Below are positions 4,088 through 61,338 of a DNA stretch of 64,000 bases, in pieces. The DNA lies in contig JAPLVH010000006.1 of the NCBI GenBank assembly GCA_026397205.1, positions 13,392 to 77,391 of the forward strand, written 5' to 3'. This stretch comes from Candidatus Berkelbacteria bacterium. GTDB lineage: Bacteria; Patescibacteriota; UBA1384; XYA2-FULL-43-10; CAINNR01. Below the pieces are notes generated by a model, which had not been told where the DNA came from, searched no databases, and saw only the letters and a program-made list of their open reading frames with translations. Made by a program: the position numbers and the translations under genes. The first letter of the stretch is position 1; each line of letters starts with the position of its first letter.

Positions 4088-4109
4088 CTTAAGTGACTTA
4101 AGTGACTTA
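4088..4109. repeat. Operon-junction palindrome CTTAAGTGACTTAAG (two overlapping copies) 6 nt upstream of the mreD ATG.
   Basis: 'cttaagtgacttaagtgactta'. No Shine-Dalgarno between it and the ATG at 4115. The same palindrome recurs at 10.87, 13.90, 25.29 and 58.07 kb. Confidence 0.6.
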
Positions 4110-6552: not shown

Positions 6553-6558
6553 TTTTAT

Positions 6559-6601
6559 GTCATTGCGAGAAGTCAAGCAGTCGGCAAACGACGAAGCAAT
6601 C
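6559..6601. repeat. Partial copy of the GTCATTGCGAG...CGAAGCAATC palindromic repeat (left half only)
   Basis: 'gtcattgcgag-N22-cgaagcaatc'. Full copies are at 19084-19154 and 21602-21664. Confidence 0.5.
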
Positions 6602-10443: not shown

Positions 10444-10865
10444 TTTTTAAGTATCTTAAGTTGCTTAATTTTCTTCCGATAATCTTTTATCGCTTTCCTC
10501 ACCCCCTCTTCGGCCAAAATTGAGCAGTGGTATTTTGCCGGCGGGAATTTGCCCATCTCGGCGGCGATCTGTTTTGATGTTAGCTTTAACGCTTCTTCAA
10601 GTGATTTACCTTTCACTAGTTCGGTCGCAATAGACGACGAAGCAATCGCCGCCCCACAGCCCAAGGTTTGGAATTTGATGTCGGAAATGTATTCTTCTGG
10701 CTTACCGCTTACTAGCTTACGACTTACGACTTTTATAAAAATTCGCATAACATCCCCGCAATTCGGATTGCCGACAGTTCCGACGCCGTCGGCACCTTTA
10801 ATCTCACCGAGATTTCTCGGGTTTCGAAAATGCTCCATTATTTTTTCACTATATAAATTTTCCAT
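10440..10865 (-). CDS. iscU: Fe-S cluster assembly scaffold IscU/NifU-like, with an internal heptamer-derived insertion
   Basis: Three conserved Cys: 'NPNCGD', 'LGCGAA', 'YHCS'. Insert 'KVVSRKLVSGKP' is encoded by a (GCTTAC)-type tract at 10701-10730. Confidence 0.8.
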   Translation of the reverse strand: MENLYSEKIMEHFRNPRNLGEIKGADGVGTVGNPNCGDVMRIFIKVVSRKLVSGKPEEYISDIKFQTLGCGAAIASSSIATELVKGKSLEEALKLTSKQIAAEMGKFPPAKYHCSILAEEGVRKAIKDYRKKIKQLKILKK

Positions 10866-10871
10866 CTTTAT

Positions 10872-10903
10872 TCTTAAAAATCTTAAGTGGCTTAAGTTAC
10901 TTA
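10872..10903. repeat. Operon-junction palindrome (CTTAAGTGGCTTAAG variant) between the iscS stop and the iscU start
   Basis: 'tcttaaaaatcttaagtggcttaagttac'. No Shine-Dalgarno before the iscU ATG. Confidence 0.55.
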
Positions 10904-13902: not shown

Positions 13903-13934
13903 CCTAAGTTGCTTAGGTGACTTAAGTGACTTAG
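13903..13934. repeat. Operon-junction palindrome (two copies, CCTAAGTTGCTTAGG + TGACTTAAGTGACTTAG) between the upstream gene stop and the tatD start
   Basis: 'cctaagttgcttaggtgacttaagtgacttag'. Confidence 0.6.
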
Positions 13935-19047: not shown

Positions 19048-19080
19048 AGCCCACCCGAACCATAGGTTCGGGCTTTTTAT
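19048..19080 (+). terminator. Rho-independent terminator
   Basis: 'agcccacccgaaccataggttcgggct' + TTTTTATTTT. Confidence 0.6.
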
Positions 19081-19083
19081 TTT

Positions 19084-19154
19084 GTCATTGCGAGCCATTG
19101 AGCAAAGCGAAAGGCGAAGCAATCCTTTAAGATTGCTTCGTTCCTCGCAATGAC
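19084..19154. repeat. Long nested palindromic repeat GTCATTGCGAG...GAAGCAATC-ctttaa-GATTGCTTC...CTCGCAATGAC (copy 1)
   Basis: 11-bp outer stem and 9-bp inner stem. Lies downstream of the Nramp-like gene. A second copy at 21602-21664 brackets a two-gene minus-strand unit. Confidence 0.65.
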
Positions 19155-19164
19155 AAAGGGAAAA

Positions 19165-20667
19165 CTATTTCAGCCACTGTAAAATCATCATCAAAATTAG
19201 TGCCATCATGACTACGAAAGCAAACCAACCGCCGGCGTTTGACCAAAATTTATTTTTGTGTTCGCCCATAATTTCTTTTGAATTGGCGATTTTTAAGGTG
19301 ATGACGAGCAAAATCGGAACTAAAATTCCGGCGATAACTTGCGAATAGAGTAGCATTCGCATCGGGTCAATGCCGAAAAGCGCCACCAGTCCGGAGGCGA
19401 GGACGGAGAAAATTATGACAATGTAAAAACCGCGGGCCTCGGAAAATTTTCTGTCGAGTCCTTCGCGCCAGTGAAAAACATCGGAGATAACATAAGCCGA
19501 TGTCGCCGCCATCACCGGCAGAGCAATTAGCCCGGCGCCCAAAATCCCGATCGAAAACAGGGCAAAGGAGAAATTTCCGGCTAATGGTTTTAGCGCCAGC
19601 GCTGCCGATTGTGGCGAGGAGATAAAAACATTTTTGCCGGCGAAAACCGTCGCTGTCGCGACGATGATAAAAAACGAGATCATATTCGACCAAATCATTC
19701 CGGCGGTGACGCCGGTTTGGGTCTTGCCCAGATCCTTGACCCGAACATTCTCCTCGACTTCCTCGGTCGTCTGCCAGAAAAAATTGTAAGCTGAAAGCGT
19801 ACCACCAACCAAGGCGACCGCTACCAGCCACCAGTCATGACCAAATGATATTGAAGGCAAAAAAGTGCCGTGAAGAATCTGCATCCACGGCGGGTGCATC
19901 ATAAATGTTGAAACGACATAAGCCAGAAGTGCCAAAGTGACAACAAAAAGATAACGGCTGATAACGGCATAACCTTTGGTGACGAGAAAAATCGCAATCA
20001 AAAGTCCGATCGGCAGAATCAACCAAAACCAGCTGATGCCGAGAATCGTGCCTAAAATATTGGACATCGCCGCAATGTCGGCGCCGATGATGATAAAATT
20101 TGTAATTAAAATTGCCAGCGCCACCGGCACACCGACACGCATTCCAAATCTTTCGCTGATAATTCGGCCAAGTCCCTTTTTTGTCACAACACCGATTCTG
20201 GCGGTCATCTCTTCGATGGCGATCAACATCGGCGTCGAAATCAACAAAAGCCAGAGTTGCGAGAAGCCGGCAATTGCGCCGGACTGGGCGTAGGTGACGA
20301 CCGAACTGGGATCGTCATCGGCCGAACCGGTGATAACGCCCTTGCGTGAATAAAGAAAAAAATCCCGAATATTTCGACGTTTTTTATAGGGCAGGGAGAC
20401 AATCCGCCCAAGTTCGCCAGCAACTAATTTTGCGCTCTCCGACTCAACTTTAGCGGTAATTTTTGCTCCGCTGGCAACTTCTCGGCCAGCAAATTCAACC
20501 ACCTCTTTGCCGGCATTAGCTCCGCCGGCAATGACATCGTAAAAACCCTCTCCGACTTTCTCGACACCACTGCCAACCTGGCCGACATCACTGACAGCTC
20601 GCCTAACCTCGGGGATTTTTTCTTTGGCTGATTTTTCTTTCCCTATTTTTGAATTTTGATCTGTCAT
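19165..20667 (-). CDS. Nramp-family-like divalent metal cation transporter with an N-terminal soluble extension
   Basis: 'GSADDDPSSVVTYAQSGAIAGFSQLWLLL' resembles the Nramp 'DPGN...QAGA.FGY.LLW' motif. About 11 TM helices; 500 aa. Confidence 0.5.
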   Translation of the reverse strand: MTDQNSKIGKEKSAKEKIPEVRRAVSDVGQVGSGVEKVGEGFYDVIAGGANAGKEVVEFAGREVASGAKITAKVESESAKLVAGELGRIVSLPYKKRRNIRDFFLYSRKGVITGSADDDPSSVVTYAQSGAIAGFSQLWLLLISTPMLIAIEEMTARIGVVTKKGLGRIISERFGMRVGVPVALAILITNFIIIGADIAAMSNILGTILGISWFWLILPIGLLIAIFLVTKGYAVISRYLFVVTLALLAYVVSTFMMHPPWMQILHGTFLPSISFGHDWWLVAVALVGGTLSAYNFFWQTTEEVEENVRVKDLGKTQTGVTAGMIWSNMISFFIIVATATVFAGKNVFISSPQSAALALKPLAGNFSFALFSIGILGAGLIALPVMAATSAYVISDVFHWREGLDRKFSEARGFYIVIIFSVLASGLVALFGIDPMRMLLYSQVIAGILVPILLVITLKIANSKEIMGEHKNKFWSNAGGWFAFVVMMALILMMILQWLK

Positions 20668-20695
20668 TTTGATTTTTAATTTTTGATTTTTGAAT
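20647..20695. repeat. (TGATTTT)n heptamer tract spanning the 5' end of the transporter gene and the gap to ksgA
   Basis: 'tttgaattttgatctgtcattttgatttttaatttttgatttttgaattt'. Confidence 0.65.
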
Positions 20696-21554
20696 TTACA
20701 ACATTATATAATTTTAGCCAGTCCTCAATTGTCAATTCTTGCGCTCTGATTTTTTCCGACAACCCCGCACTTTTAATTATATCAGATGCTTCGGTTTTAG
20801 AGATATGAAGTCCGGCGGCCAAATTATTTTCCAAGGTCTTTCTTCGGCTAGCAAAACCAAATTTGACAATTCGAAATAGATCCGCTTCCTTAACTTTACG
20901 CTTTTCGCTTTTAGTTTTGAGTTTGATAATCGCCGACTCAACTTTTGGCAGCGGGAAAAACGAAGTTGATTTTACAATGTCGACAATTTCCACATCGGCA
21001 TAAAACTGAACTGAAACCGACAAAAGCGACATCTCGCCAGGACGAGCAACAATTCGTTCGGCAACTTCTTTCTGCACCAACAAAACCATCAACTCCGGTT
21101 TGTTGTCCGCTTCCAAAAATTTTCTAATGATGGCAGAAGTAATATTGTAGGGAATATTTGCGACGACTTTGTAGTCATAAGCCGTAAGCTGTAAGCTGTA
21201 AGCCGATAAATCCAGATCCAGCGCGTCTTCATTTACTATTTTAATTTTTACTTTGTCATTTTTCTTGCGATAGCTGACCCTGCGGGGATTTTTGATATTT
21301 GATATTTGATTTAGAAGTTCGGCGAGAAAGTCGTCTTTTTCAATTGCCACGACCCGGCCGGCTCGGCTGACAAGTTCCTCGGTCAAAACTCCCAGCCCCG
21401 GCCCGATTTCGATGACGGTGTCGGTTGATTTTAAATCCGCTGCTTCGACGATTTTCGCCAACACCTCATCGTCAACCAAAAAATTCTGCCCCATATTCTT
21501 TTTCGCCCAAATTTTATTCGCCTGCAAGAATTGAATCAGTTCTTCTTTGTTCAT
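20676..21554 (-). CDS. rsmA: 16S rRNA (adenine1518/1519-N6)-dimethyltransferase RsmA/KsgA, with heptamer insertions
   Basis: 'MGQNFLVDDEVLAKIV...VIEIGPGLGVLTEEL' KsgA signature. Inserts 'SAYSLQLTAY' and 'KNPRRVSYRKKNDKVKIKI'. Confidence 0.85.
   Translation of the reverse strand: MNKEELIQFLQANKIWAKKNMGQNFLVDDEVLAKIVEAADLKSTDTVIEIGPGLGVLTEELVSRAGRVVAIEKDDFLAELLNQISNIKNPRRVSYRKKNDKVKIKIVNEDALDLDLSAYSLQLTAYDYKVVANIPYNITSAIIRKFLEADNKPELMVLLVQKEVAERIVARPGEMSLLSVSVQFYADVEIVDIVKSTSFFPLPKVESAIIKLKTKSEKRKVKEADLFRIVKFGFASRRKTLENNLAAGLHISKTEASDIIKSAGLSEKIRAQELTIEDWLKLYNVVNSKIKN
21181..21203. repeat. (TGTAAGC)n heptamer tract, in frame inside ksgA
   Basis: 'gccgtaagctgtaagctgtaagc'. Confidence 0.65.
21245..21318. 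repeat. Mini-element fragment (GATAGCTGACCCTGCGGGGA module + (TGATATT)n arm), in frame inside ksgA
   Basis: 'gtcatttttcttgcgatagctgaccctgcggggatttttgatatttgatatttgatttag'. Confidence 0.7.
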
Positions 21555-21601
21555 ATTCTTATCTTATCTTTTCTCTCCACTTTGAGCAAGAAAAATGATT
21601 T

Positions 21602-21664
21602 GTCATTGCGAGCCATCAGCGGAGGCGCGGCAAACTTTTTGGATTGCTTCGTTCCTCGCAATGA
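21602..21664. repeat. Copy 2 of the GTCATTGCGAG...CTCGCAATGAC palindromic repeat
   Basis: 'gtcattgcgagccatcagcggaggcgcggcaaactttttggattgcttcgttcctcgcaatgac'. Confidence 0.65.
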
Positions 21665-21673
21665 CGAAATTCC

Positions 21674-23107: not shown

Positions 23108-23110
23108 AGG

Positions 23111-23236
23111 ATTATTATATCAAATATCAAATATCAAAGATCAAAATGTTGGTCGGCACTCCGTGCTGAGATTTTTATATTCTTTTTACCTTTTTCATCT
23201 ATCATTTTGATTTTTGATATTTTATTTTTGATTTTT
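23111..23236. repeat. Complete heptamer-array mini-element (intergenic): (ATCAAAT/ATCAAAG)n arm, core TTGGTCGGCACTCCGTGCTGAGATTT, unique segment, inverted (TGATTTT)n arm
   Basis: 'tatcaaatatcaaatatcaaagatcaaaatgttggtcggcactccgtgctgagattttta...catctatcattttgatttttgatattttatttttgatttttcc'. Fills the whole gap between two minus-strand genes. Confidence 0.7.
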
Positions 23237-23238
23237 CC

Positions 23239-25284
23239 TCAGATTTCCTCCTTCACTTCCTCCGGAATTTCCTCGAGGAAGCGCGACGGCAGATTCATTG
23301 TGAGCTTGCCAAAATAGGTTCGTTCGCCGGCATAAAGCAAATACAGCGTTTTTTGCGCCCGAGTCATTCCGACATAACACAGCCGGCGCTCCTCTTCGAC
23401 TTGATCCGGCTCAAATTCACTTCTGGAGTGCGGCAGAATCCCCTCCTCGAGACCGATAACGAAAACAATCGGAAATTCCAAACCCTTGGCCGAGTGGAGC
23501 GTCATTAATGTGACAACATTTTCATTTGATTTTATCTCGTCGGAGTCCTGATAGAGTGCGACCTTTTCTAAAAAATCATCGAGCGGACTTTCGCTGTCAG
23601 CCGTTTCGTTGTAAGTCGCAACCGTTTTTAATTCGAGAATATTTTCCCAACGACCCTCGCCCTCGGCCGTGCCGTCGAGAATAAAGTCCTTATAGCCGGA
23701 ACTCTCAGTGATGATGTCAATCATATCGGCAACCGACAAATTATCTTTACGCTCGCGAATTCCGTTGATCCAGGATAAGAATTTGGCGATTTTTTCTGGC
23801 AGCTCAACCGATAAATTTTCGGCGGCAAAATATTTTTCCAAGGTCTTAGCGCCTATTCCTCGCGGAGGGAGGTTTATCGCCCGCTCAAAGGAAACTCGAT
23901 CGTTCGGATTGGCGACCAAACGGAGATAGGCCAAAATGTCTTTGACTTCGCGCCGTTGGTAGAAGCGAATGCCGCCGACGACCCGATAGGGAATTTCGTA
24001 ACGCAAAAACGCTTCTTCGACCGCCCGGGATTGGGCGTTGGTGCGATACAAAACGGCAAATTGAGAAAAGCTTGTAGTTTGTAGTTTGTAGTTTGTAGAT
24101 AAATCCAAAAATCTAGCCACGGAGTGGCTACCATCATTTTGATTTTTGATTTTTGATTTTTGATTTTGCGCAAGAGATGTAATCTCTTGCGCAACAAACT
24201 CCGCTTCATCTTTTTCATTTAACGCTTCGTAAATCTGGATTTTCTGACCATCGGGATTATCGGTCCACAAAGTTTTCTCGGTTTTGTGCCGATTATATTT
24301 AATTAAAGCATCGGCGCCGACCAAAATATTTTTTGTCGAGCGATAATTTTGCTCAAGTTTTATCACCTTCGTTTGGGGAAAATCGCGCTCAAAATTTAAG
24401 ATATTTCGAAAGTTGGCGCCGCGAAAACCGTATATTGACTGCGAATCATCGCCGACGACACATAAATTTTTATGAATTTTCGACAGCTGGCGAATCCAGA
24501 GATACTGAACCTGGTTCGTATCCTGATATTCGTCAACCAAAATGTATTTGAAAATCCGCTGATATTTTTCCAGAGCCGTTGGGTTATCATCGAAAAGTTT
24601 GACGCAGTTCAAAAGCAAGTCATCGAAATCCATCGCCCCGATTGATTTTAGATATTTTTGATATTCCGCGTAGACATCGCGAACAATTTCATCAAAGTGT
24701 GAGTTGGCGTATTTGGAATACTCTTTTGGACCGAGAAATTCATTTTTCGCGCCAGAAATGTGAGAAAGAATGGCGTTTGGATTGTAATTTTTCGGATTGA
24801 TATTTTGATCGCGCATGATTTTCTTCACCACCGAAAGCTGGTCCTGCGAATCATAAATTGTAAAATTCGACGGGTAGCCGATATGCTGGGCCTCGCGTCG
24901 CAAAATCTTGACGCAAATTGAGTGGAAAGTGCCAAGCCATGGTAGTTTGTAGTTTGTAGAATTTTCTTCGTCATTCCAGTGAAGATGGGAATCTACTGAT
25001 AGTCCAGCCACGGAGTGGCTACCATCATTTTGATTTTTGATTTTTGATTTTTGATTTAGCAGAATTTCCATTCGCGCTTTCATCTCTCCCGCCGCTTTGT
25101 TGGTAAAAGTGACACAAAGGATATTGAAAGGTGAAACTTTTTTTTCTGATATCAAAAAAGCCAGTCGGTGCGTCAACGCCCGGGTTTTGCCGCTGCCGGC
25201 ACCAGCCAGGATTAACACCGGCCCTTCGGTTGTCCGAACCGCTTCCTGTTGTGGCGGGTTTAGTCCTTCGAAAATGTTTTTCAT
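23239..25284 (-). CDS. pcrA: UvrD/PcrA/Rep-family ATP-dependent DNA helicase, with two composite repeat insertions
   Basis: Walker A 'AGAGSGKTRALTHR', motifs Ia-VI ('TFHSICVKILR', 'VDEYQDTN', 'NYRS', 'TLHSAKGLEF'). Inserts '...NQKSKIKNQNDGSHSVAGLS...STNYKLP...' occur twice. Confidence 0.85.
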   Translation of the reverse strand: MKNIFEGLNPPQQEAVRTTEGPVLILAGAGSGKTRALTHRLAFLISEKKVSPFNILCVTFTNKAAGEMKARMEILLNQKSKIKNQNDGSHSVAGLSVDSHLHWNDEENSTNYKLPWLGTFHSICVKILRREAQHIGYPSNFTIYDSQDQLSVVKKIMRDQNINPKNYNPNAILSHISGAKNEFLGPKEYSKYANSHFDEIVRDVYAEYQKYLKSIGAMDFDDLLLNCVKLFDDNPTALEKYQRIFKYILVDEYQDTNQVQYLWIRQLSKIHKNLCVVGDDSQSIYGFRGANFRNILNFERDFPQTKVIKLEQNYRSTKNILVGADALIKYNRHKTEKTLWTDNPDGQKIQIYEALNEKDEAEFVAQEITSLAQNQKSKIKNQNDGSHSVARFLDLSTNYKLQTTSFSQFAVLYRTNAQSRAVEEAFLRYEIPYRVVGGIRFYQRREVKDILAYLRLVANPNDRVSFERAINLPPRGIGAKTLEKYFAAENLSVELPEKIAKFLSWINGIRERKDNLSVADMIDIITESSGYKDFILDGTAEGEGRWENILELKTVATYNETADSESPLDDFLEKVALYQDSDEIKSNENVVTLMTLHSAKGLEFPIVFVIGLEEGILPHSRSEFEPDQVEEERRLCYVGMTRAQKTLYLLYAGERTYFGKLTMNLPSRFLEEIPEEVKEEI
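24071..24169. repeat. Composite mini-element inside the helicase gene: (GTTTGTA)4, inverted core AGCCACGGAGTGGCT, (TGATTTT)5
   Basis: 'gcttgtagtttgtagtttgtagtttgtagataaatccaaaaatctagccacggagtggctaccatcattttgatttttgatttttgatttttgatttt'. The core is the reverse complement of the intergenic core motif CACTCCGTG. Confidence 0.75.
24941..25058. repeat. Second composite mini-element inside the helicase gene: (GTTTGTA)n, spacer, core, (TGATTTT)5
   Basis: 'ggtagtttgtagtttgtag...agtccagccacggagtggctaccatcattttgatttttgatttttgatttttgattt'. Confidence 0.75.
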
Positions 25285-25323
25285 AAGTTGCTTAAGTTTC
25301 TTAAGTGACGTAAGTCACTTATT
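25285..25323. repeat. Operon-junction palindromes immediately upstream of the helicase start codon
   Basis: 'taagttgcttaagtttcttaagtgacgtaagtcacttat' includes AAGTGACgtaaGTCACTT. Confidence 0.55.
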
Positions 25324-25659
25324 CATAATAGCCGAAAAAAATCCACTCGGCAATCAAAAAAGGCGCAGGATTTACTTGCTTATAGGGAACAAAAATTTTA
25401 ATTATTGCCCTGCAGTATCACTACGCCTTTGAGGGGTGTCGCGAAAACGACTTAGAATCGCTTCGTGGCATCCCTCAATTGATATTTTATCTATCAAGAG
25501 ACACCTTTCACGTTTCTTTTTTCCCCGTGTTCTTTGTCCTTACCAAATTTTTTTGATTTTCTGATTTACTTTTTCTTTTTGTTTTATTTGGTTTGGTTTT
25601 GGCAAGGAGATCAGAAAAAAAATTTCTAATGTCAAATTTCTAATTTCTAAAAAATATTT

Positions 25660-25838
25660 GACATTTGTAATTAGGAATTAGGCATTTATTTCTAACTTCC
25701 TTGCCAACGGTAAAATCAACGAAAAAACTCCTCGGAAGAGGAGCACATTAAAAATTTCAAATGACTAATTTCTAATGCCAAACAAAATCCATTTGACATT
25801 TGTAATTTGGAATTAGGCATTTATTTTATTCGCCCCTC
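25660..25838. repeat. Two direct copies (about 36 nt each) of ATTTGACATTTGTAATTNGGAATTAGGCATTTATTT, with (ATTTCTA)n tracts
   Basis: Copies at about 25663-25700 and 25800-25838. Related copies at 3206-3240 and 54930-54965. Confidence 0.5.
25720..25745 (-). terminator. Possible minus-strand rho-independent terminator in the long intergenic region
   Basis: Minus-strand reading 'ctcctcttccgaggag' + TTTTTTC. No annotated minus-strand gene upstream of it in the gap, so possibly a small RNA. Confidence 0.35.
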
Positions 25839-25968
25839 CAGACGAATGAGTGCTATTAAATTGTTAATGTTATATTTATTATAACGCACAATTCCCCAAT
25901 TTGTCAAGACATAAAGCGACTATTTTCGATCAGACAAAAAATTAGTCAGTGTGGAAATAGATAATTTA

Positions 25969-26073
25969 TATCAAAAATCAAAATGTTGGTCGGCACTCCG
26001 TACCGGGATTTTATTTCTTTAGATATATTTTATTTGTCATTTTGATTTTTGATATTTGCTTTTTGATTTTCTT
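25969..26073. repeat. Complete heptamer-array mini-element (intergenic). The right arm runs into the promoter of the downstream gene.
   Basis: 'tcaaaaatcaaaatgttggtcggcactccgtaccgggattttatttctttagatatattttatttgtcattttgatttttgatatttgctttttgattttc'. Confidence 0.7.
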
Positions 26074-26090
26074 TCCGATTTGACTTATTG

Positions 26091-26586: not shown

Positions 26587-26619
26587 AAAATTCCAAATTT
26601 CTAATTTCTAATTTCAAAA

Positions 26620-27573
26620 ATGGGATTGAAGCGAGGGGCAAAACTGGCAACGATTTTTGCGGCGGTGGTAATTGTTGCGCTGCCGGTTTTTGCTTTCGCT
26701 TCGCATGTCGAACTGCGAACCGTCAATGCTCGCCAGGCCTATCTCGACACTTTTTTCAATAAAACTGTTGCCCAACTGATTTATGACGAATCAACCCAAC
26801 ATAATGTTAACCCCCGGCTGATTTTGGATGTTCTGCAGCGGGAAAGTTCGGCGATTACCCAATCAACGCCGTCTTCGGACACTCGCCGCGCTTGGCCGAT
26901 GTTTTATAACTACGATGAAAGCATGGCGTCGTGCTTGACTTCGGGCATAAACTGCACCGACGCGAAATACAACAAACCGGATTACAGTTATCGGGCAGAA
27001 AATTACGGTGGTGTCGGCCAACAAATCGCCTACGCCACCGCTCAACTTCGAAATCTTCATGACTCTGCCGGCTATTGCGGCGGCGGACTGGCGGTTTCGG
27101 TTGATGGAAACACAATTACCACCGACAACGCCGGGTCGTGCGCGCTTTACAAATACACACCGCACATTGTCTCCTACAACACCGGTTCGGCATTTTACAC
27201 CAACTGGCAAAGCTGGTGGAGTGGAACGCCAAACGGCGGCAGTTACTCGGCGACAAATATTATTTCCGAGGATAATTTCGCTAATGACAGTCCGATGACA
27301 ACCGATCAAATCAACAGCTTCTTGACCGGAAAAGGCAGCTGGCTCGGTGGTCTTATGATTGCCGAATACATCTCTGTTCCCTATCCGGTTCTGGTTGCCG
27401 ACGCGCCGGCGCGGAAATCCGGTGACGCTAACGGCGACGGCAATATTGATCTGCTAGATCTGTCAATTCTCGCGACTTGGTGGGGCACTTCAAACACTGA
27501 TGCCGACTTCAATCACGACGGCACGGTTGATCTACTCGACTTATCAATCCTGGCAAGCCAGTGGGGACAATAA
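26620..27573 (+). CDS. Secreted protein with a C-terminal dockerin type I repeat pair
   Basis: Signal/TM 'LATIFAAVVIVALPVFAFA'. C-terminal 'DANGDGNIDLLDLSILATWWG...DFNHDGTVDLLDLSILASQWG' matches the dockerin calcium-binding repeat consensus. Confidence 0.55.
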   Translation: MGLKRGAKLATIFAAVVIVALPVFAFASHVELRTVNARQAYLDTFFNKTVAQLIYDESTQHNVNPRLILDVLQRESSAITQSTPSSDTRRAWPMFYNYDESMASCLTSGINCTDAKYNKPDYSYRAENYGGVGQQIAYATAQLRNLHDSAGYCGGGLAVSVDGNTITTDNAGSCALYKYTPHIVSYNTGSAFYTNWQSWWSGTPNGGSYSATNIISEDNFANDSPMTTDQINSFLTGKGSWLGGLMIAEYISVPYPVLVADAPARKSGDANGDGNIDLLDLSILATWWGTSNTDADFNHDGTVDLLDLSILASQWGQ

Positions 27574-27576
27574 AAT

Positions 27577-27615
27577 CAATTAACCTAATTGACCTAATTA
27601 TTCTAATTAACCTAA
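27577..27615. repeat. Tandem 9-mer array (TAATTRNYC)x4 upstream of the four-helix-bundle gene
   Basis: 'caattaacc taattgacc taattattc taattaacc taa'. Confidence 0.55.
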
Positions 27616-27618
27616 AAA

Positions 27619-27987
27619 ATGCCAGAAGCTCCAAGCCACAAAAGAAAATATGATCTCGAGGAAAGAACGGCGGCCTTTGGAGAAAATGTTATTCGACTTC
27701 TGAAGAAAATTGAAGATAACAGTATCACCAAGCCAATCAAAACCCAACTTACGAAATGCGCAACGAGTGTCGGAGCTAATTATTGTGAAGCTGATGACGC
27801 TGAAAATCCGCAAGATTTTAAACATAAAATCGGCATTTGCAAGAAAGAATCTAGGGAGTCGAAACACTTTCTTCGCATGCTGGCAGTCGCAACTCCCAAA
27901 CTGAAGGATGAGATTCCAATCCTCTGGCAAGAAGCCAAGGAATTAAACTTGATATTCAACACAATTTATCGCTCAGTGAAAAAATAG
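27619..27987 (+). CDS. Four-helix-bundle protein of the 23S rRNA intervening-sequence / DGR Avd-like family (TIGR02436-like)
   Basis: 'SVGANYCEADDAENPQDFKHKIGICKKESRESKHFLRMLA' fits the family pattern (S.GANiaEg...DFi.kl.ia.kE..ET.yWL). 122 aa. Confidence 0.5.
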   Translation: MPEAPSHKRKYDLEERTAAFGENVIRLLKKIEDNSITKPIKTQLTKCATSVGANYCEADDAENPQDFKHKIGICKKESRESKHFLRMLAVATPKLKDEIPILWQEAKELNLIFNTIYRSVKK

Positions 27988-28024
27988 ATTTCTTTTTGGG
28001 GCTTTGGTTATTGGTATTTGTTTA

Positions 28025-28060
28025 GAATAATTAGTATAATTAGAACAATTAGAATAATTT
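28025..28060. repeat. Inverted 9-mer array (GWAYAATTA)x4 downstream of the four-helix-bundle gene
   Basis: 'gaataatta gtataatta gaacaatta gaataattt' is the reverse-complement orientation of the upstream TAATTNNNC array. Confidence 0.55.
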
Positions 28061-28070
28061 GGAGGGTTCG

Positions 28071-29306
28071 GTGAAAAGGATTATTTCAATTCTTGTGATA
28101 TCGGCGATGCTCGTAATCTTTCTGCCAACCTCAACCCTGGCGGCTGGCGGCGTTTATGCAACAGGCGGCGGCGCGAAAACCGTCGGTGATTCTTTTACCG
28201 TCACGGTGGCGGCATCGGGCGCGACTTTTAACGCTCTCGAGGGCACGATCTCTGTTTCCGGACCAGTTTCGATTACCAGCTTTTCCGCCGGCGGCGCGAC
28301 CTGGACCTCGGTACCGGCGAACGGAACACATTTTGTCGGGATGATAATTCCGGCAACAACATCCCTAACAGTTGCAACAATTCGCCTGAAAGCGGCTGGA
28401 GTCGGCTCGGGCGCGGTTTCAATTTCTTCGGTTCGATTGGCAAATGCCGGCTCGGAGGTTGGCTCTGGCGCCGGATCTGCCAGTTTTTCAATCGCCAAAG
28501 CGCCACAACTGGCTAGTGTGACAGTGACTTCATCGTCTCACCCCGATCAAGCAACGGCCTATGACACAACAACGATCGCTCTCGCTTGGAACAAAGCTAG
28601 CGGCGTTGACGGTTTTTCCTATCTTTTAGACCAAGCGGCGGCGACAACACCGGCGGCAAAAATTATTGATGCCGCCACCAGTGCGACACACGCTAATAAA
28701 GCAATCGGAATTTACTACTTCCATATTCGCGCTCACAACACCGATGGCTGGGGGCCGACGACGCACTTCGAAATTCAGATCAAAGCGCCGGACGCTAAAG
28801 TTGACACAACACTTCCCCAACCAACAAATATCAAAATTGAAAAGTCGGATAATTTTGTCAATGATATTGAAAAAGGCACAATTTCCGGCCTGAAAATTTC
28901 CGGCGTCACCGTTCCGGCCTACACGGCAAAAATTACCTTGACTCCGGTGGTTACGATTCCCGACGGCAAAGTTTTAACCGCGGTTGCTGGTGATGATGGC
29001 AGTTTTGAAATTTTGATTGATTGGGCAATTCCCGCCGGCCGATATTCGCTGACTGTTCAAGGGCAGAAAGATCTGTCACTGACACCGGTTTCCGACCCGA
29101 CGATTTTTGAAATCTCGCAGGCCAAAGGCGGCGCCATCAACATTTTGACCGACGCCGACAGCAACCCGCCGACAATTTCCTCGGCGGTTAAATCAGCGAC
29201 ACGAAATTGGAAACTAATCAGCGAAATCGCCGGCGGTGTTTTAATCTTGTTTTTGATCGGACTTTTGATTTATCTCCGCCGCCGCAAATCCCGAAGAACT
29301 ATTTAA
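28071..29306 (+). CDS. Cell-surface protein, Ser/Thr/Ala/Gly-rich, with signal peptide and a C-terminal TM anchor + RRRKSRR stop-transfer. Possible glycoprotein.
   Basis: Likely GTG start at 28071 after GGAGGG. 'ILVISAMLVIFLPTSTLA' signal. C-terminal 'IAGGVLILFLIGLLIYLRRRKSRRTI'. Confidence 0.5.
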   Translation: MKRIISILVISAMLVIFLPTSTLAAGGVYATGGGAKTVGDSFTVTVAASGATFNALEGTISVSGPVSITSFSAGGATWTSVPANGTHFVGMIIPATTSLTVATIRLKAAGVGSGAVSISSVRLANAGSEVGSGAGSASFSIAKAPQLASVTVTSSSHPDQATAYDTTTIALAWNKASGVDGFSYLLDQAAATTPAAKIIDAATSATHANKAIGIYYFHIRAHNTDGWGPTTHFEIQIKAPDAKVDTTLPQPTNIKIEKSDNFVNDIEKGTISGLKISGVTVPAYTAKITLTPVVTIPDGKVLTAVAGDDGSFEILIDWAIPAGRYSLTVQGQKDLSLTPVSDPTIFEISQAKGGAINILTDADSNPPTISSAVKSATRNWKLISEIAGGVLILFLIGLLIYLRRRKSRRTI

Positions 29307-58073: not shown

Positions 58074-58095
58074 CTTAAGCTTCTTAAGCGACTTA
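58074..58095. repeat. Operon-junction palindrome (CTTAAGCTTCTTAAG variant) between the rSAM stop and the downstream start
   Basis: 'cttaagcttcttaagcgactta'. Confidence 0.55.
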
Positions 58096-60246: not shown

Positions 60247-61224
60247 TTATCGTTCCAATTTCCGAACCGTCAGTCCTTGGACAAAACGAATTCCATACCA
60301 AATGTGAGTTAGAAAGATCATTGGAATTGTTAGAATACCAATAAGCGGATTTTTGTGACGGAGGGAAATGATGACGGCATCAAATAAAAGTCCTAATCCG
60401 TAAGCAATAAGCGGTAAGAAAAACAAAATTCGAAATTCGAAATTCGAAATTCGAAACAATATCGAAAATAAGAAAATTAAATACAAAACAAATAAAGTCG
60501 GGATAAAGTAGCCGATTTTCAAAGATGTCTGCGGATATTTTTTGGCAAAAAAGCCGCGGTGGAGTGCATAGTTTCCGATTTGTTTGAAATGCTTTAAGAG
60601 ATTGGCGCGACGATGGTGGTAGACAATACCGGCCGGGTCATAAATAATTTTGTAGCCGGCACTTACAATGTCGAGACAAAGTTTTGTGTCCTCGCCCGGC
60701 CAATACTGGCAATCAAATCCGCCGACTTCCTTAAAAACATCGCGCCAGATCAGCAAACTGACCGTCGGCCAGTCGTCGCAAGTTCGACGATTTCCGATTG
60801 GTAGATAACGGTTGCGGGTGAAACCGCCACCGAGATACGACTCGAAAATCGCGCCGGAAACTTTTTGCAAAACGCCGTTTGATGACGGCGTCACTGCTGG
60901 ACAACCGACGGCGCCAACTTCAGATTTGCGAAAATTGGGAATCATCTTTTTTAGCCAGTCGCGGCGCGGATAGGCATCATCATCTAAAAAAGCCAGGACT
61001 TTCCCACGGGCAAATTTCAGCGCCAAATCACGCTTTTCTGCCGGTCCGATCTTGCCAGAAGCGATGATTTTTGTTTTTGGCCAGCGGTGAATTTCATCCG
61101 GTCGGTCGGGAAATATTAAAACCTCAAACTCCGGCCAATCGAGTTTCAGAATATGCTCCATTGATTCGTAAATGTAGTCGTTGATCTTTTTAACCGGAAT
61201 GATAATTGAAACTTTGGGTTTCAT
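60247..61224 (-). CDS. GT2 family glycosyltransferase with a C-terminal TM region
   Basis: 'KVSIIIPVKKINDYI...LAFLDDDAYP' DXD motif. Three C-terminal hydrophobic helices. Confidence 0.65.
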   Translation of the reverse strand: MKPKVSIIIPVKKINDYIYESMEHILKLDWPEFEVLIFPDRPDEIHRWPKTKIIASGKIGPAEKRDLALKFARGKVLAFLDDDAYPRRDWLKKMIPNFRKSEVGAVGCPAVTPSSNGVLQKVSGAIFESYLGGGFTRNRYLPIGNRRTCDDWPTVSLLIWRDVFKEVGGFDCQYWPGEDTKLCLDIVSAGYKIIYDPAGIVYHHRRANLLKHFKQIGNYALHRGFFAKKYPQTSLKIGYFIPTLFVLYLIFLFSILFRISNFEFRILFFLPLIAYGLGLLFDAVIISLRHKNPLIGILTIPMIFLTHIWYGIRFVQGLTVRKLER

Positions 61225-61338
61225 AAATCAAAAATTAAATATCAAAGATCAAAATGTTGGTCGGCACTCCGTGCCGGGATTTATTCTTTTTCATCTTTTT
61301 TATTTATCATTTTAATTTTTGATATTTGATTTTTGCTT
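61225..61338. repeat. Complete heptamer-array mini-element filling the intergenic gap: (ATCAAAA)n arm, core TTGGTCGGCACTCCGTGCCGGGATTT, inverted (TGATTTT)n arm
   Basis: 'aaatcaaaaattaaatatcaaagatcaaaatgttggtcggcactccgtgccgggatttattctttttcatcttttttatttatcattttaatttttgatatttgatttttgc'. Confidence 0.7.

What the first reader, a model, noticed from the sequence alone, without database searches (positions are those of the whole stretch)
27577..28060. Four-helix-bundle (23S-IVS / Avd-like) gene carried as a cassette between inverted 9-mer tandem arrays
The 122-aa ORF has the GANxxEA...DFxxKl...KE..E..hFL pattern of the four-helix-bundle family. Members of that family are characteristically encoded inside rRNA intervening sequences, or serve as Avd accessory proteins of diversity-generating retroelements.

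Here the gene is flanked by (TAATTNNCC)x4 upstream and the inverted (GNNNAATTA)x4 downstream. This is the same inverted short-tandem-array architecture used by the heptamer mini-elements. The family as a whole may therefore be able to carry cargo.

No reverse transcriptase or template/variable repeat pair is visible in the window, so a classical DGR is not supported. The position, directly upstream of a large surface protein gene, is still notable.
Basis: partly seen in the sequence, partly recalled or inferred. Interest (0 to 1): 0.55.

Follow-up and report, generated by a model that had tools for sequence, protein, structure and literature searches.

The report
IVS-like four-helix-bundle gene cassette
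A 482-bp cassette, a small four-helix-bundle gene boxed in by mirror-image runs of four short repeats, sits between two genes of a Berkelbacteria genome; the same design is seen in bacteria labelled as seven or more phyla, matches the intervening sequences of ribosomal RNA genes, and may explain long-puzzling heptamer repeats.

Summary
A 122-aa ORF (27619-27987) scores as TIGR02436/PF05635. It folds as a four-helix bundle closest to the S23p proteins 2RLD and 2GSC. It lies between 42-nt arms (27578-27619, 28018-28059), each made of four 9-mers (AATTNNNCT) in opposite orientation.

The arrangement is not local. Most of 80 related loci, from Patescibacteria, Ignavibacteriota, Calditrichota and others, carry the same unit of about 465 bp. 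Divergent homologues in Planctomycetota, Cyanobacteria, Bacteroidota and Chloroflexota have the same layout with other 7-mers; Xanthomonas XCC0516 has one such array at its start codon.

The Coxiella 23S rRNA intervening sequence has the same design: S23p ORF, heptamers before the ATG, a 28-bp stem cut by RNase III.

Orthologous junctions exist as empty, mini-element or full-cassette states. Gene-less mini-elements outnumber gene-bearing ones. The only cargo found is this gene.

No reverse transcriptase was seen within about 8 kb, none recurs next to the 80 relatives, and no template/variable repeat pair is present. This is not a diversity-generating retroelement (DGR).

Best reading: an IVS-type selfish cassette living in an mRNA operon and read through from the host gene. 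Cutting by RNase III and binding of the arms by its own protein are inferences.

I found no paper linking this family to the unexplained heptamer repeats.

The parts
27578..27618 (+). Left arm: four 9-mers (AATTAACCT AATTGACCT AATTATTCT AATTAACCT) followed by AAAAA. It abuts the ATG, and there is no Shine-Dalgarno sequence.
   Evidence: The same arm, a CTAATT core spaced 7 or 9 nt apart, lies upstream of the homologous gene in 68 of 80 loci. Only 0.4% of random 70-nt windows show it.
27619..27987 (+). Four-helix-bundle protein gene, 122 aa, of the S23p / 23S-rRNA-IVS protein family (TIGR02436, PF05635).
   Evidence: It is under purifying selection across relatives: codon-position identity is 0.75 / 0.80 / 0.46.
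27988..28017 (+). Inner right segment. In the predicted RNA fold it pairs with 27612-27645, that is, the end of the left arm, the AUG and the first codons.
   Evidence: the stem continues inward from the arms. MFE is -125.1 kcal/mol, z = -4.3 against 100 shuffles. Across loci the support is weak: cognate against non-cognate z = -1.8, sense more stable than antisense p = 0.001.
28018..28059 (+). Right arm: TTGTTT followed by four 9-mers (AGAATAATT AGTATAATT AGAACAATT AGAATAATT), the inverse of the left arm.
   Evidence: It contains a sigma-70-like site, TTGGTA-18-TATAAT at 28011-28040, that faces the downstream gene. This is a consensus match only.
26620..27573 (+). Upstream host gene (dockerin-domain protein). 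It is co-oriented, and its stop codon lies 4 nt before the left arm.
   Evidence: The upstream neighbour is co-oriented in 77 of 80 related loci, with a median gap of 42 nt (binomial p = 1e-5).
28059..29306 (+). Downstream host gene (secreted or membrane-anchored protein with no Pfam match). The likely start is GTG 28071, preceded by GGAGGG at 28062-28067, directly after the right arm.
25621..25693 (+). Gene-less mini-element of the same arm type: AATTTCT / AATGTCA heptamers, then the inverse ATTAGGA / ATTTGAC units, with almost no spacer.
25752..25827 (+). Second gene-less mini-element: AATTTCA AATGACT AATTTCT AATGCCA ... ATTTGAC ATTTGTA ATTTGGA ATTAGGC.
26590..26619 (+). Solo left-arm-type array, (AATTTCT) x3, ending directly at the ATG of ORF 26620.

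Best explanation
The region 27578-28059 is one copy of a widespread, compact selfish cassette of the kind known as the S23p-encoding intervening sequence (IVS) of 23S rRNA. Here it sits in a protein-coding operon instead of an rRNA gene.

**Anatomy (shown).** A single gene for a basic (pI about 9) four-helix-bundle protein is enclosed by two arms. Each arm is about four tandem 7- or 9-nt units with a conserved core (CTAATT here), and the two arms are in opposite orientation.

**Shown by comparison.**
- The unit enters and leaves genomes as a block, at the few bases between the stop codon of one gene and the start codon of the next gene of an operon.
- It decays into gene-less mini-elements that keep the arms.
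- It multiplies within genomes, but rarely.

**Inferred.**
- It has no promoter of its own and is transcribed by read-through from the co-oriented upstream gene.
- In the transcript the arms pair into a long interrupted stem that also covers the start codon.
- As in the rRNA IVS, this stem is probably a substrate of host RNase III. Cleavage would free the cassette RNA from the host message.

**More speculative.** The core of every unit is conserved although the spacer positions neither co-vary nor need to pair. The arms also change in step with protein subfamilies, even within one genome. The arms therefore look like arrays of sequence-specific binding sites, and the most economical candidate reader is the element's own ring-forming protein. 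How the DNA moves is unknown.
For: **Same architecture elsewhere.**
- 68 of 80 related loci have at least three TAATT cores in the 70 nt upstream, against 0.4% of random windows. Spacing is 7 or 9 nt.
- Among the 55 loci where both arms could be delimited, the element measures 436-540 bp (median 465), with four units per arm in most.
- A flank-complementarity score of at least 15 is reached by 68% of these genes and by 2% of 418 neighbouring genes.

**Generality in divergent relatives.**
- A subfamily about 52% identical has NNNNCAA / TTGNNNN heptamer arms. It sits between pilB and pilC, between a histidine kinase and its response regulator, and between rfaE1 and rfaE2.
- Plasmid homologues 24-34% identical (by the alignment), from Cyanobacteria, Bacteroidota and Chloroflexota, carry arrays of about 4.7 heptamers. 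By my reading of the flanks, the arrays are inverted at about 13 of the 14 loci examined.
- Array density is 3.85 per kb beside the gene and 0.50 per kb elsewhere.
- Xanthomonas XCC0516 (PDB 2GSC) has a 28-nt, four-unit GGGAATC array over its start codon (supplement of PMC4692102).

**Match to the IVS (PMC4990558).** The Coxiella IVS is a 444-nt element with an S23p ORF. It has three GACAGAT heptamers plus one degenerate unit just before the ATG, a poor Shine-Dalgarno sequence, and a 28-bp terminal stem cut by RNase III in vitro.

**Insertion and loss at orthologous sites.**
- ftsE|ftsX: filled in L012, empty in L033.
- pheS|pheT: full cassette in L038, mini-element in L180, empty in L211.
- yebC|ruvC: full in L043 and L060, mini-element in L153.
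- A mini-element lies in frame inside an ORF of L078 and is absent from its orthologue in L020.

**Spread within genomes.** Copies in the same assembly (the same locus for two pairs) are 75-89% identical, against a family median of 70%.

**Read-through transcription.** The upstream gene is co-oriented in 77 of 80 loci, against a 79% background (p = 1e-5). The gap is the arm itself. No promoter-like or terminator-like site lies upstream.

**Stem.** The arm duplex is about -24 kcal/mol, against -6.8 for shuffled arms. The full element folds arm to arm with z = -4.3.

**Functional protein.** Codon-position identities are 0.75 / 0.80 / 0.46.

**Arms track protein clades.** CAATTCG, TAATTCG, GTCGGAG-type and TTCAAAA arms each go with their own protein clade, and they co-exist in single Nostoc strains.
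Against: - **No locus-specific pairing signal in the arms.** Cognate arms are no more complementary than arms taken from different loci (z = -1.5 by alignment, z = +2.1 by energy). There is no sense/antisense asymmetry.
- **This copy pairs imperfectly.** Its arms are only 81% complementary, with 2-nt internal loops.
- **RNase III is untested.** Cleavage has been shown only for the rRNA IVS of other bacteria. I did not check whether this organism has the enzyme.
- **Translation is uncertain.** The ORF lacks a Shine-Dalgarno sequence and its AUG is predicted to be paired. In Coxiella the protein appears not to be made (PMC4990558).
- **No movement machinery.** I saw no target-site duplication. 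The protein matches no family other than S23p, so no nuclease or recombinase is recognisable.
- **Mobility is slow.** Identical proteins were always found at the same genomic site.
- **Arm-protein co-divergence proves little.** It could reflect simple linkage rather than recognition.
- **Labels are shaky.** Several taxonomic labels come from metagenome bins.
Confidence: 0.6

Rival explanations
1. Host regulator with a regulon. The four-helix-bundle protein is a domesticated post-transcriptional or transcriptional regulator. It binds short tandem arrays placed just upstream of start codons of many host genes. The arrays around its own gene serve autoregulation, and the dispersed arrays are operators rather than remnants of mobile elements.
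For: - Solo arrays end directly at start codons: 26590-26619 before ORF 26620, and the ATCAAAA array before the Nramp gene at 20667.
- Published work places heptamer arrays within a few nt of start codons that lack ribosome-binding sites, and postulates an unidentified binding protein (PMC4679880; bioRxiv 10.1101/2022.06.06.494920).
- Protein and core motif are both conserved across phyla.
Against: - The gene sits in unrelated operons in each genome, with no conserved synteny across the 80 loci.
- It is multi-copy with within-genome duplicates.
- Orthologous junctions show presence/absence and a full/mini/empty series.
- Mini-elements occur in frame inside ORFs.
- All of this is the behaviour of an insertion element, although later co-option of arrays is not excluded.
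Confidence: 0.2
2. Generic transposable mini-element with a passenger. The arms are the terminal inverted repeats of a MITE-like family moved by a transposase encoded elsewhere. The four-helix-bundle gene is a passenger with a function of its own.
For: - Inverted arms with several subterminal repeats are typical binding-site arrays of transposon ends (own knowledge: Tn7, Mu, En/Spm, foldback elements).
- Gene-less copies outnumber gene-bearing ones about eight to one.
- The element encodes no recognisable nuclease or recombinase: the protein matches only the S23p family.
Against: - The only cargo ever found between such arms is this gene, both in the arm-based search and around 80 loci.
- The pairing of gene and arms holds in every lineage examined (labelled as seven or more phyla), with different unit sequences that track the protein clade.
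- No target-site duplication was seen.
- No transposase family recurs near the loci.
Confidence: 0.12
3. Accessory protein (Avd) of a diversity-generating retroelement whose reverse transcriptase lies outside the window.
For: The fold is distantly similar to Avd: 4DWL and 8UB7 chain E, TM 0.59-0.67.
Against: - No reverse-transcriptase domain in the 12 flanking ORFs scanned; the rest of the window was not scanned. No template/variable repeat pair anywhere in the window.
- No recurrent neighbour gene in 80 loci.
- No relatives on viral contigs.
- A family profile reaches only 2RLD among solved structures, not Avd.
Confidence: 0.02
4. Chance or low-complexity AT-rich spacer. The arrays are slippage products with no relation to the gene.
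For: The window is rich in short tandem arrays: 36 of period 7 or 9 in 64 kb. Strains differ by whole heptamers.
Against: - None was expected by chance in the window.
- The same arms flank the gene in most of 80 loci, whereas neighbouring genes lack them.
Confidence: 0.01

Closest known systems
S23p-encoding intervening sequence (IVS) of 23S rRNA (Coxiella burnetii, Leptospira, others)
   Same: - Size: 444 nt against 482 nt here.
- A single ORF of the same protein family, in sense orientation to the host transcript.
- Tandem short repeats (three or four GACAGAT units) ending at the ATG, and a poor or absent ribosome-binding site.
- Terminal inverted repeats that form a stem of about 28 bp. In Coxiella this stem is cut by RNase III.
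- Sporadic, horizontally patchy distribution (PMC4990558).
   Different: - The host site is the spacer between two protein genes, not helix 9, 25 or 45 of 23S rRNA. No rRNA is present in the window.
- The units are 9-mers mixed with 7-mers around a CTAATT core, and pairing is imperfect (81%).
- Here the ORF is under strong purifying selection. In Coxiella it is decaying.
Unexplained heptamer repeats: cyanobacterial STRR (CCCCAAT and others), Nostoc TTTTGAA, Xanthomonas GGGAATC, Beggiatoaceae/Bacteroidetes TAACTGA
   Same: - Tandem arrays of about 3-5 units of 7 nt. They are mostly intergenic, often end at a start codon that lacks a ribosome-binding site, and often occur in convergent pairs (PMC4692102, PMC4679880, bioRxiv 10.1101/2022.06.06.494920).
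- The very same units flank four-helix-bundle genes: TTCAAAA/TTTTGAA in L092, CCCCAAT in L082, NNACTGN (including TAACTGA) in L085, and GGGAATC at XCC0516.
   Different: - Those papers treat the repeats as G-quadruplex formers, translational signals or fingerprinting targets. None of the three read here names the four-helix-bundle gene, and no paper in the library couples the two. The IVS literature notes the heptamers only for Coxiella.
- The identification of STRR with CCCCAAT rests on my own knowledge (Mazel et al. 1990).
Avd, the accessory protein of diversity-generating retroelements
   Same: A four-helix bundle of similar size and positive charge. It forms a homopentamer that binds nucleic acid together with the reverse transcriptase (own knowledge; structural match).
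   Different: - No reverse transcriptase and no template/variable repeats.
- Sequence similarity is undetectable, even with a family profile.
- As far as I know, no tandem-array arms have been described for Avd genes. I did not test this here.
RAYT/REPIN systems, bacterial MITEs and Rickettsia palindromic elements (own knowledge)
   Same: - A gene-bearing form flanked by inverted copies of a short motif, plus many gene-less palindromic derivatives dispersed in intergenic spacers.
- Occasional in-frame insertions inside genes (L078; the helicase in the window).
   Different: - The encoded protein is not a recognisable transposase.
- The arms are tandem arrays of a 7-9-nt unit rather than a single palindrome.
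- No target-site duplication was seen.

Membership tests
TIGR02436 / PF05635 four-helix-bundle (S23p, 23S-rRNA-IVS protein) family | Scores above the curated cut-off of the family models. | tested here: met
   TIGR02436: 57.2 bits against a cut-off of 24. PF05635: 39 bits against 33.8.
TIGR02436 / PF05635 four-helix-bundle (S23p, 23S-rRNA-IVS protein) family | Up-down four-helix-bundle fold like the solved members. | tested here: met
   The AF2 model has pLDDT 91.6 and four helices. Foldseek gives 2RLD with TM 0.70-0.76 and 2GSC with TM 0.62-0.79. By sequence, 2RLD scores E = 3.6e-8, and 1.4e-16 with a family profile.
TIGR02436 / PF05635 four-helix-bundle (S23p, 23S-rRNA-IVS protein) family | Homopentameric ring. 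| not testable with these tools
   2RLD and 2GSC each hold five chains, and the literature states a pentamer for Xcc0516 (PMC4990558). The oligomer of this protein was not modelled.
S23p-type intervening sequence (IVS) element | A single S23p-family ORF enclosed by terminal inverted repeats that can form a stem of about 28 bp or more. | tested here: met
   42-nt arms, 81% complementary. The duplex energy is -23.8 kcal/mol. The whole element folds arm to arm.
S23p-type intervening sequence (IVS) element | Tandem short repeats directly upstream of the start codon, with no good ribosome-binding site. | tested here: met
   Four 9-mers followed by AAAAA and then the ATG. Coxiella has three GACAGAT units plus one degenerate unit.
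S23p-type intervening sequence (IVS) element | Inserted in a helix of 23S (or 16S) rRNA. | tested here: not met
   No rRNA is present in the window. The cassette lies between two protein genes. It works like an IVS but is not an rRNA IVS.
S23p-type intervening sequence (IVS) element | Excised from the host transcript by RNase III. | not testable with these tools
   This is known only from experiments on Coxiella, Leptospira and Salmonella.
DGR accessory protein Avd | Encoded next to a reverse transcriptase and a template/variable repeat pair. | tested here: not met
   No RT domain in the 12 flanking ORFs scanned; no TR/VR-like repeat in the window; no recurrent neighbour in 80 loci.
DGR accessory protein Avd | Detectable homology to Avd. 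| tested here: inconclusive
   There is only weak structural similarity: 4DWL and 8UB7 with TM 0.59-0.67 and E 0.3-1. The family profile does not reach them.
MITE / DNA transposon | Terminal inverted repeats, many copies in unrelated contexts, and filled and empty orthologous sites. | tested here: met
MITE / DNA transposon | Target-site duplication of fixed length. | tested here: not met
   No direct repeat is seen at the outer ends in 55 cassettes or at the filled/empty pairs. There is only a weak A...T preference.
MITE / DNA transposon | A cognate transposase in the autonomous copy. | tested here: not met
   The only element-encoded product is the 122-aa four-helix bundle. It has no PADLOC or PHROG match.
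Short tandemly repeated heptamer sequences (STRR-like) | Tandem arrays of 7-nt units, a few copies each, dispersed mostly between genes. | tested here: met
   The window holds 36 arrays of period 7 or 9, with a modal copy number of about 4.4-4.6. The cassette's own arms use 9-mers here and mixed 7- and 9-mers in relatives.

The most novel reading that the evidence does not exclude
S23p / TIGR02436 four-helix-bundle genes, together with their inverted arrays of about 4.5 short repeats, form a single, ancient class of compact mobile element that has not been recognised as such. It is seen in genomes labelled as seven or more bacterial phyla. The rRNA 'intervening sequences' are the special case that landed in rRNA. 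The enigmatic heptamer repeats (cyanobacterial STRR, Xanthomonas GGGAATC, TAACTGA, and the heptamer mini-elements of this window) are its gene-less derivatives. The ring-forming protein is the sequence-specific reader of the repeat units, with one subfamily per unit type.
Probability: 0.4. Interest if true: 0.85.

Novelty: new variant of a known kind. Interest (0 to 1): 0.72.

Why it matters
**Three puzzles may be one.**
- The function of the very large S23p / four-helix-bundle family is unknown. I counted 4029 clusters at 50% identity and more than 7000 close relatives of this subfamily alone.
- The origin of the rRNA intervening sequences is unknown.
- The nature of the heptamer repeats, used for decades as cyanobacterial fingerprints and repeatedly re-described without a partner protein, is unknown.

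If gene and arrays belong together, all three become testable with a purified protein and defined oligonucleotides in culturable hosts such as Nostoc and Xanthomonas.

**Practical consequences.**
- These genes are inserted inside CRISPR-cas, DISARM/BREX, pilus, two-component and aminoacyl-tRNA-synthetase operons. 23S_rRNA_IVP proteins have been reported near cas genes (terms found in PMC3936711 and PMC10910872; passages not read). If they are operon-inserting selfish cassettes, guilt-by-association calls for them are likely to mislead.
- ORF callers often run through the arrays.

Tried and rejected
**Tests of pairing**
- Covariation of the arms. Cognate arms were compared with non-cognate arms by alignment and by RNA duplex energy, and sense with antisense. 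There was no signal. I therefore dropped 'co-evolving RNA stem' as the main constraint on the arms.
- The inner stem gave only weak support.

**Searches that found nothing**
- Defence and phage libraries (PADLOC, PHROGs): no match.
- Viral contigs: no relatives.
- Target-site duplications: none found.
- Recent transposition. Two proteins seen on many contigs (24 and 23 contigs read) were always at the same genomic site.

**Ideas dropped**
- The L089 cassette seemed to split a cytosine methyltransferase gene. The upstream fragment matches only the first about 56 positions of the model and the downstream ORF has no match, so it is a degraded gene, not a clean split.
- Distant right arms in L040 and L067 looked like extra cargo. 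The intervening ORFs are on the opposite strand and unrelated (a trypsin-like peptidase and unknowns), so I read these as separate solo arms.

**Technical failures**
- My first general detector of inverted array pairs was too strict and missed degenerate and mixed 7/9 arrays. I replaced it with motif-based and TRF-based counts.

**Literature**
- No paper in the library couples heptamer repeats with the four-helix-bundle or Avd terms, and only the Coxiella paper couples them with the IVS. The three heptamer-repeat papers I read do not mention the family. The library lacks most subscription journals.
Full report
**1. Observation**

The window is a contig of a Candidatus Berkelbacteria genome bin: an identical protein is on record from an 82-kb contig.

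- At 27619-27987 (+) lies a 122-aa ORF. It passes the curated thresholds of PF05635 (39 bits against 33.8) and TIGR02436 (57.2 against 24).
- Directly upstream, at 27578-27618, are four 9-mers: AATTAACCT, AATTGACCT, AATTATTCT, AATTAACCT. They are followed by AAAAA and then the ATG.
- Downstream, at 28018-28059, is the inverse: TTGTTT, then AGAATAATT, AGTATAATT, AGAACAATT, AGAATAATT.
- The arms are 42 nt long and 81% complementary.
- AATTNNNCT x3 occurs nowhere else in the window. No match was found in 100 shuffles.

**2. The protein**

- AlphaFold2, run with 44 homologues, gives a confident four-helix bundle (pLDDT 91.6).
- The nearest solved structures are BT_0352 (2RLD, 'S23 ribosomal protein family') and Xcc0516 (2GSC). 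Both are deposited with five chains. Avd of the Bordetella phage DGR is a weak, distant match.
- The protein is basic (pI about 9) and has long invariant stretches: DLEERTAxFGE, TSxGANYxEADDAES, KKExRExKH, LWxEAKELNLIFN.
- Across 84 genes, identity is 0.75, 0.80 and 0.46 at codon positions 1, 2 and 3. The protein is therefore under purifying selection while silent sites are saturated. Gene GC content follows host GC content (r = 0.81). These are old, resident and functional genes.

**3. The cassette is a conserved unit**

A scan of one genome per species returned 506 relatives, of which I kept the best 80. By record title they come from many Patescibacteria classes, Ignavibacteriota, Calditrichota, Bacteroidota and a Phycisphaeraceae chromosome. 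Some labels are those of metagenome bins and may be wrong.

- 68 of 80 have at least three TAATT cores in the 70 nt before the ATG, against 0.4% of random windows. Spacing is 7 nt (55 cases) or 9 nt (101 cases).
- In the 55 loci where both arms could be delimited, the distance from outer AATT to outer AATT is 436-540 bp (median 465), with four units per arm in most.
- A simple score of flank complementarity reaches 15 or more in 68% of these genes and in 2% of 418 neighbouring genes.
- No other gene family recurs near the loci. The neighbours are housekeeping genes of every sort.

**4. Not a DGR**

- The window has no long direct repeat of the template/variable type.
- The 12 flanking ORFs scanned (about 19.2-34.6 kb) have no reverse-transcriptase domain. 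I did not scan the ORFs further out in the window.
- No gene family, RT or other, recurs next to the 80 relatives.
- No relatives were found on viral contigs.

**5. It behaves as an insertion**

Orthologous junctions occur in different states.

- ftsE|ftsX carries the cassette in L012. In L033 it is a 7-nt spacer.
- pheS|pheT is a 6-nt spacer in L211. It holds a mini-element of about 105 nt (arms only) in L180, and the full cassette in L038.
- yebC|ruvC holds the full cassette in L043 and L060, and a mini-element in L153.

Further observations:

- The element starts at, or overlaps, the stop codon of the upstream gene. The old spacer remains on its right side.
- A mini-element sits in frame inside a membrane-protein gene of L078 and is absent from the orthologue in L020.
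- L046 keeps a left arm followed by a truncated gene start.
- Copies in the same assembly (the same locus for two of the four pairs) are 75-89% identical, and three of the four pairs lie above the family's 95th percentile of 78%. This points to spread within genomes.
- Two exact proteins seen on many contigs (24 and 23 read) always sit at the same site, so movement is rare.
- I saw no target-site duplication.

**6. The only cargo is this gene**

A metagenome scan for the arm motif alone (CTAATTN3CTAATTN3CTAATT) gave 120 loci.

- About half are unrelated repeats.
- Among the genuine arms, there are roughly 48 gene-less mini-elements, with a median spacer of 53 nt. These were counted as 97 over the two strands.
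- There are 5-6 cassettes, all with the four-helix-bundle gene, one of them a pseudogene.
- Some arms are solo. Nothing else is enclosed.

The window itself holds two mini-elements (25621-25693 and 25752-25827) and a solo left arm that ends at the ATG of ORF 26620.

**7. The design is general for the family, with other repeat units**

- L063 (Phycisphaeraceae, 62% identical) has CGAATGN units.
- A second large subfamily is about 52% identical and has 7839 relatives. Source names for its members include Stahlbacteria, Candidatus Tripitaka, Brocadiales, Nitrospirae, Deltaproteobacteria and Patescibacteria. Its arms are NNNNCAA / TTGNNNN heptamers. It lies between pilB and pilC, between a histidine kinase and its response regulator, and between rfaE1 and rfaE2. 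These units are of the same type as the abundant TTTTGAT / ATTTGNA arrays of the window.
- Homologues on plasmids of Nostoc, Dolichospermum, Planktothrix, Pseudanabaena, Bernardetia, Chondrinema and Chlorohelix are 24-34% identical by the alignment. They again sit co-oriented inside operons: drmD|pglX, csx2|cas1, and RND adaptor|RND permease.
- By my reading of the flank sequences, they are flanked by inverted arrays in about 13 of the 14 loci examined; only the Bernardetia locus has arrays in direct orientation. Several are perfect, for example (TAATTCG)4...(CGAATTA)4, (CAATTCG)4...(CGAATTG)4, (GTCGGAG)4...(CTCCGAC)4 and (TTCAAAA)4...(TTTTGAA)4.
- Arrays are 3.85 per kb beside the gene and 0.50 per kb elsewhere in these loci.
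- Copy number clusters tightly around 4.3-4.9 units.
- Arm type follows protein clade. Different types co-exist in one strain: N. punctiforme has GTCGGAG and CAATTCG, and N. flagelliforme has TAATTCG and TTCAAAA.

**8. Link to known things**

- **The Coxiella IVS.** It is a 444-nt element in 23S rRNA with an S23p ORF. It has three GACAGAT heptamers plus a degenerate fourth just before the ATG, a poor ribosome-binding site, and a 28-bp terminal stem, which equals four heptamers. RNase III cuts that stem in vitro, at the first repeat. Strains differ by whole heptamers (PMC4990558). This is the same architecture.
- **CPR rRNA insertions.** Some CPR rRNA insertions also carry 23S_rRNA_IVP ORFs (PMC11270868).
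- **Published heptamer repeats.** Four families, reported without a partner protein, coincide with arms found here:
  - Nostoc TTTTGAA/TTCAAAA (bioRxiv 10.1101/2022.06.06.494920) matches L092.
  - GGGGATT, which is CCCCAAT on the other strand (PMC4692102), matches L082.
  - TAACTGA (PMC4679880) is present among the units of L085.
  - Xanthomonas GGGAATC matches XCC0516. In the supplement of PMC4692102, repeat 15 (28 nt, four units) overlaps the start codon of XCC0516, the very protein solved as 2GSC, and lies 6 nt from bccP.
- **The literature gap.** None of those three papers mentions the four-helix-bundle gene, and I found no paper in the library that couples the two. The library lacks most subscription journals.

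**9. How it probably works**

*Shown.*
- The upstream gene is co-oriented in 77 of 80 loci, against a background of 79% (p = 1e-5). The downstream gene shows no such bias.
- The gap to the upstream gene is just the arm.
- No promoter-like site precedes the ORF and no terminator follows it.

*Inferred: read-through transcription from the host operon.*

*Predicted.*
- The arms pair at -24 kcal/mol, against -6.8 for shuffled arms.
- The whole element folds arm to arm, and the stem extends over the AUG (z = -4.3).

*By analogy with the IVS: RNase III cleavage in the stem.*

*Against a purely structural role.*
- Cognate arms pair no better than non-cognate ones.
- The spacer positions do not co-vary.
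- There is no sense-strand bias.
- Yet the hexamer core is kept in lineages whose silent sites are saturated.
- In Nostoc, arrays stay perfect while the proteins differ by 10-17%.

The arms therefore look like arrays of recognition sites on double-stranded nucleic acid. The only element-encoded candidate reader is the ring-forming protein itself. This step is an inference. Linkage alone could explain the co-divergence. How the DNA moves is unknown: there is no nuclease and no duplication.

**10. Verdict**

- The specific cassette is an IVS-type S23p element in an mRNA operon, which is a new variant of a known kind.
- The wider reading has about 40% probability. It holds that this protein family and the unexplained heptamer repeats are two halves of one old mobile system. 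It would interest specialists in mobile elements, cyanobacterial genomics and CPR biology. It is directly testable.

Noticed in passing
window 23239-25284 (-), inserts at about 24060-24175 and 24935-25065: The UvrD/PcrA-type helicase ORF carries two in-frame inserts. Each is (ATCAAAA)x4, then a hairpin GCCACTCCGTGGC, then (ACTACAA)x3-4, and is translated as ...KSKIKNQNDGSHSVA...TNYKLQ.... The second array is not the inverse of the first, unlike the intergenic mini-elements.
   Followed up: partly
window, whole: There are 36 tandem arrays of period 7 or 9 in 64 kb, with a modal copy number of about 4.4-4.6. Half lie inside mechanically called ORFs. They are concentrated at 3-32 kb and 54-62 kb, and only one is seen in the long minus-strand operon at 33.5-54 kb.
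   Followed up: partly
window 23108-23238, 25946-26081, 61217-61345 and at least 7 further partial copies: This is a dispersed mini-element family. On the transcribed (minus) strand it reads as follows: stop codon, (ATCAAAA)x4, a short ATG-initiated stretch, the hairpin GGCACTCCGTGCC, then (TTGATAT)x4, then the next gene's ATG. Its unit type matches the arms of the second four-helix-bundle subfamily (L216-L224). No gene of that subfamily is in the window.
   Followed up: partly
window 20647-20697: An (ATCAAAA)-type array on the minus strand ends exactly at the ATG of the Nramp transporter gene (start 20667). It fills the 8-nt gap to the stop codon of ksgA.
   Followed up: no
window 4088-4109, 10447-10468, 10882-10903, 13912-13933, 25284-25306, 58074-58095: Arrays of a different 9-mer (CTTAAGTGA, about 2.4 copies) fill very short gaps between co-oriented genes.
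   Followed up: no
window 6553-6600, 19080-19160, 21600-21670: GTCATTGCGAG...CTCGCAATGAC hairpin repeats form another dispersed palindromic family. Similar GTCATT...AATGAC or GTCATCCTCGA...TCGAGGATGAC hairpins are nested inside cassettes or mini-elements in L036 and L192.
   Followed up: no
window 28011-28040: The right arm contains a 10-of-12 sigma-70-like site, TTGGTA-18-TATAAT, pointing at the downstream gene. It arises from the AGTATAATT unit and is not conserved in other loci.
   Followed up: no
L219, L220, L221 (three bins carrying the identical protein P0134, named Candidatus Tripitaka californicus by NCBI): With identical four-helix-bundle proteins, the region after the stop codon differs by a 14-nt indel, which is two heptamers. 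In L220 it also differs by a further insertion next to an assembly gap. This is the same kind of strain variation as in the Coxiella IVS.
   Followed up: partly
L091 (Nostoc sp. ATCC 53789 plasmid pNsp_b), downstream of the gene: The right array is expanded to about 38 copies of ACTTGCG. In L088 and L091 the next genes are xisH and xisI excision-factor homologues.
   Followed up: no
family-wide: Many cluster representatives are 150-175 aa long, with the match beginning near residue 50. These are probably ORF calls that run through the upstream array, as in L216, where the annotated ATG lies inside the heptamers.
   Followed up: no
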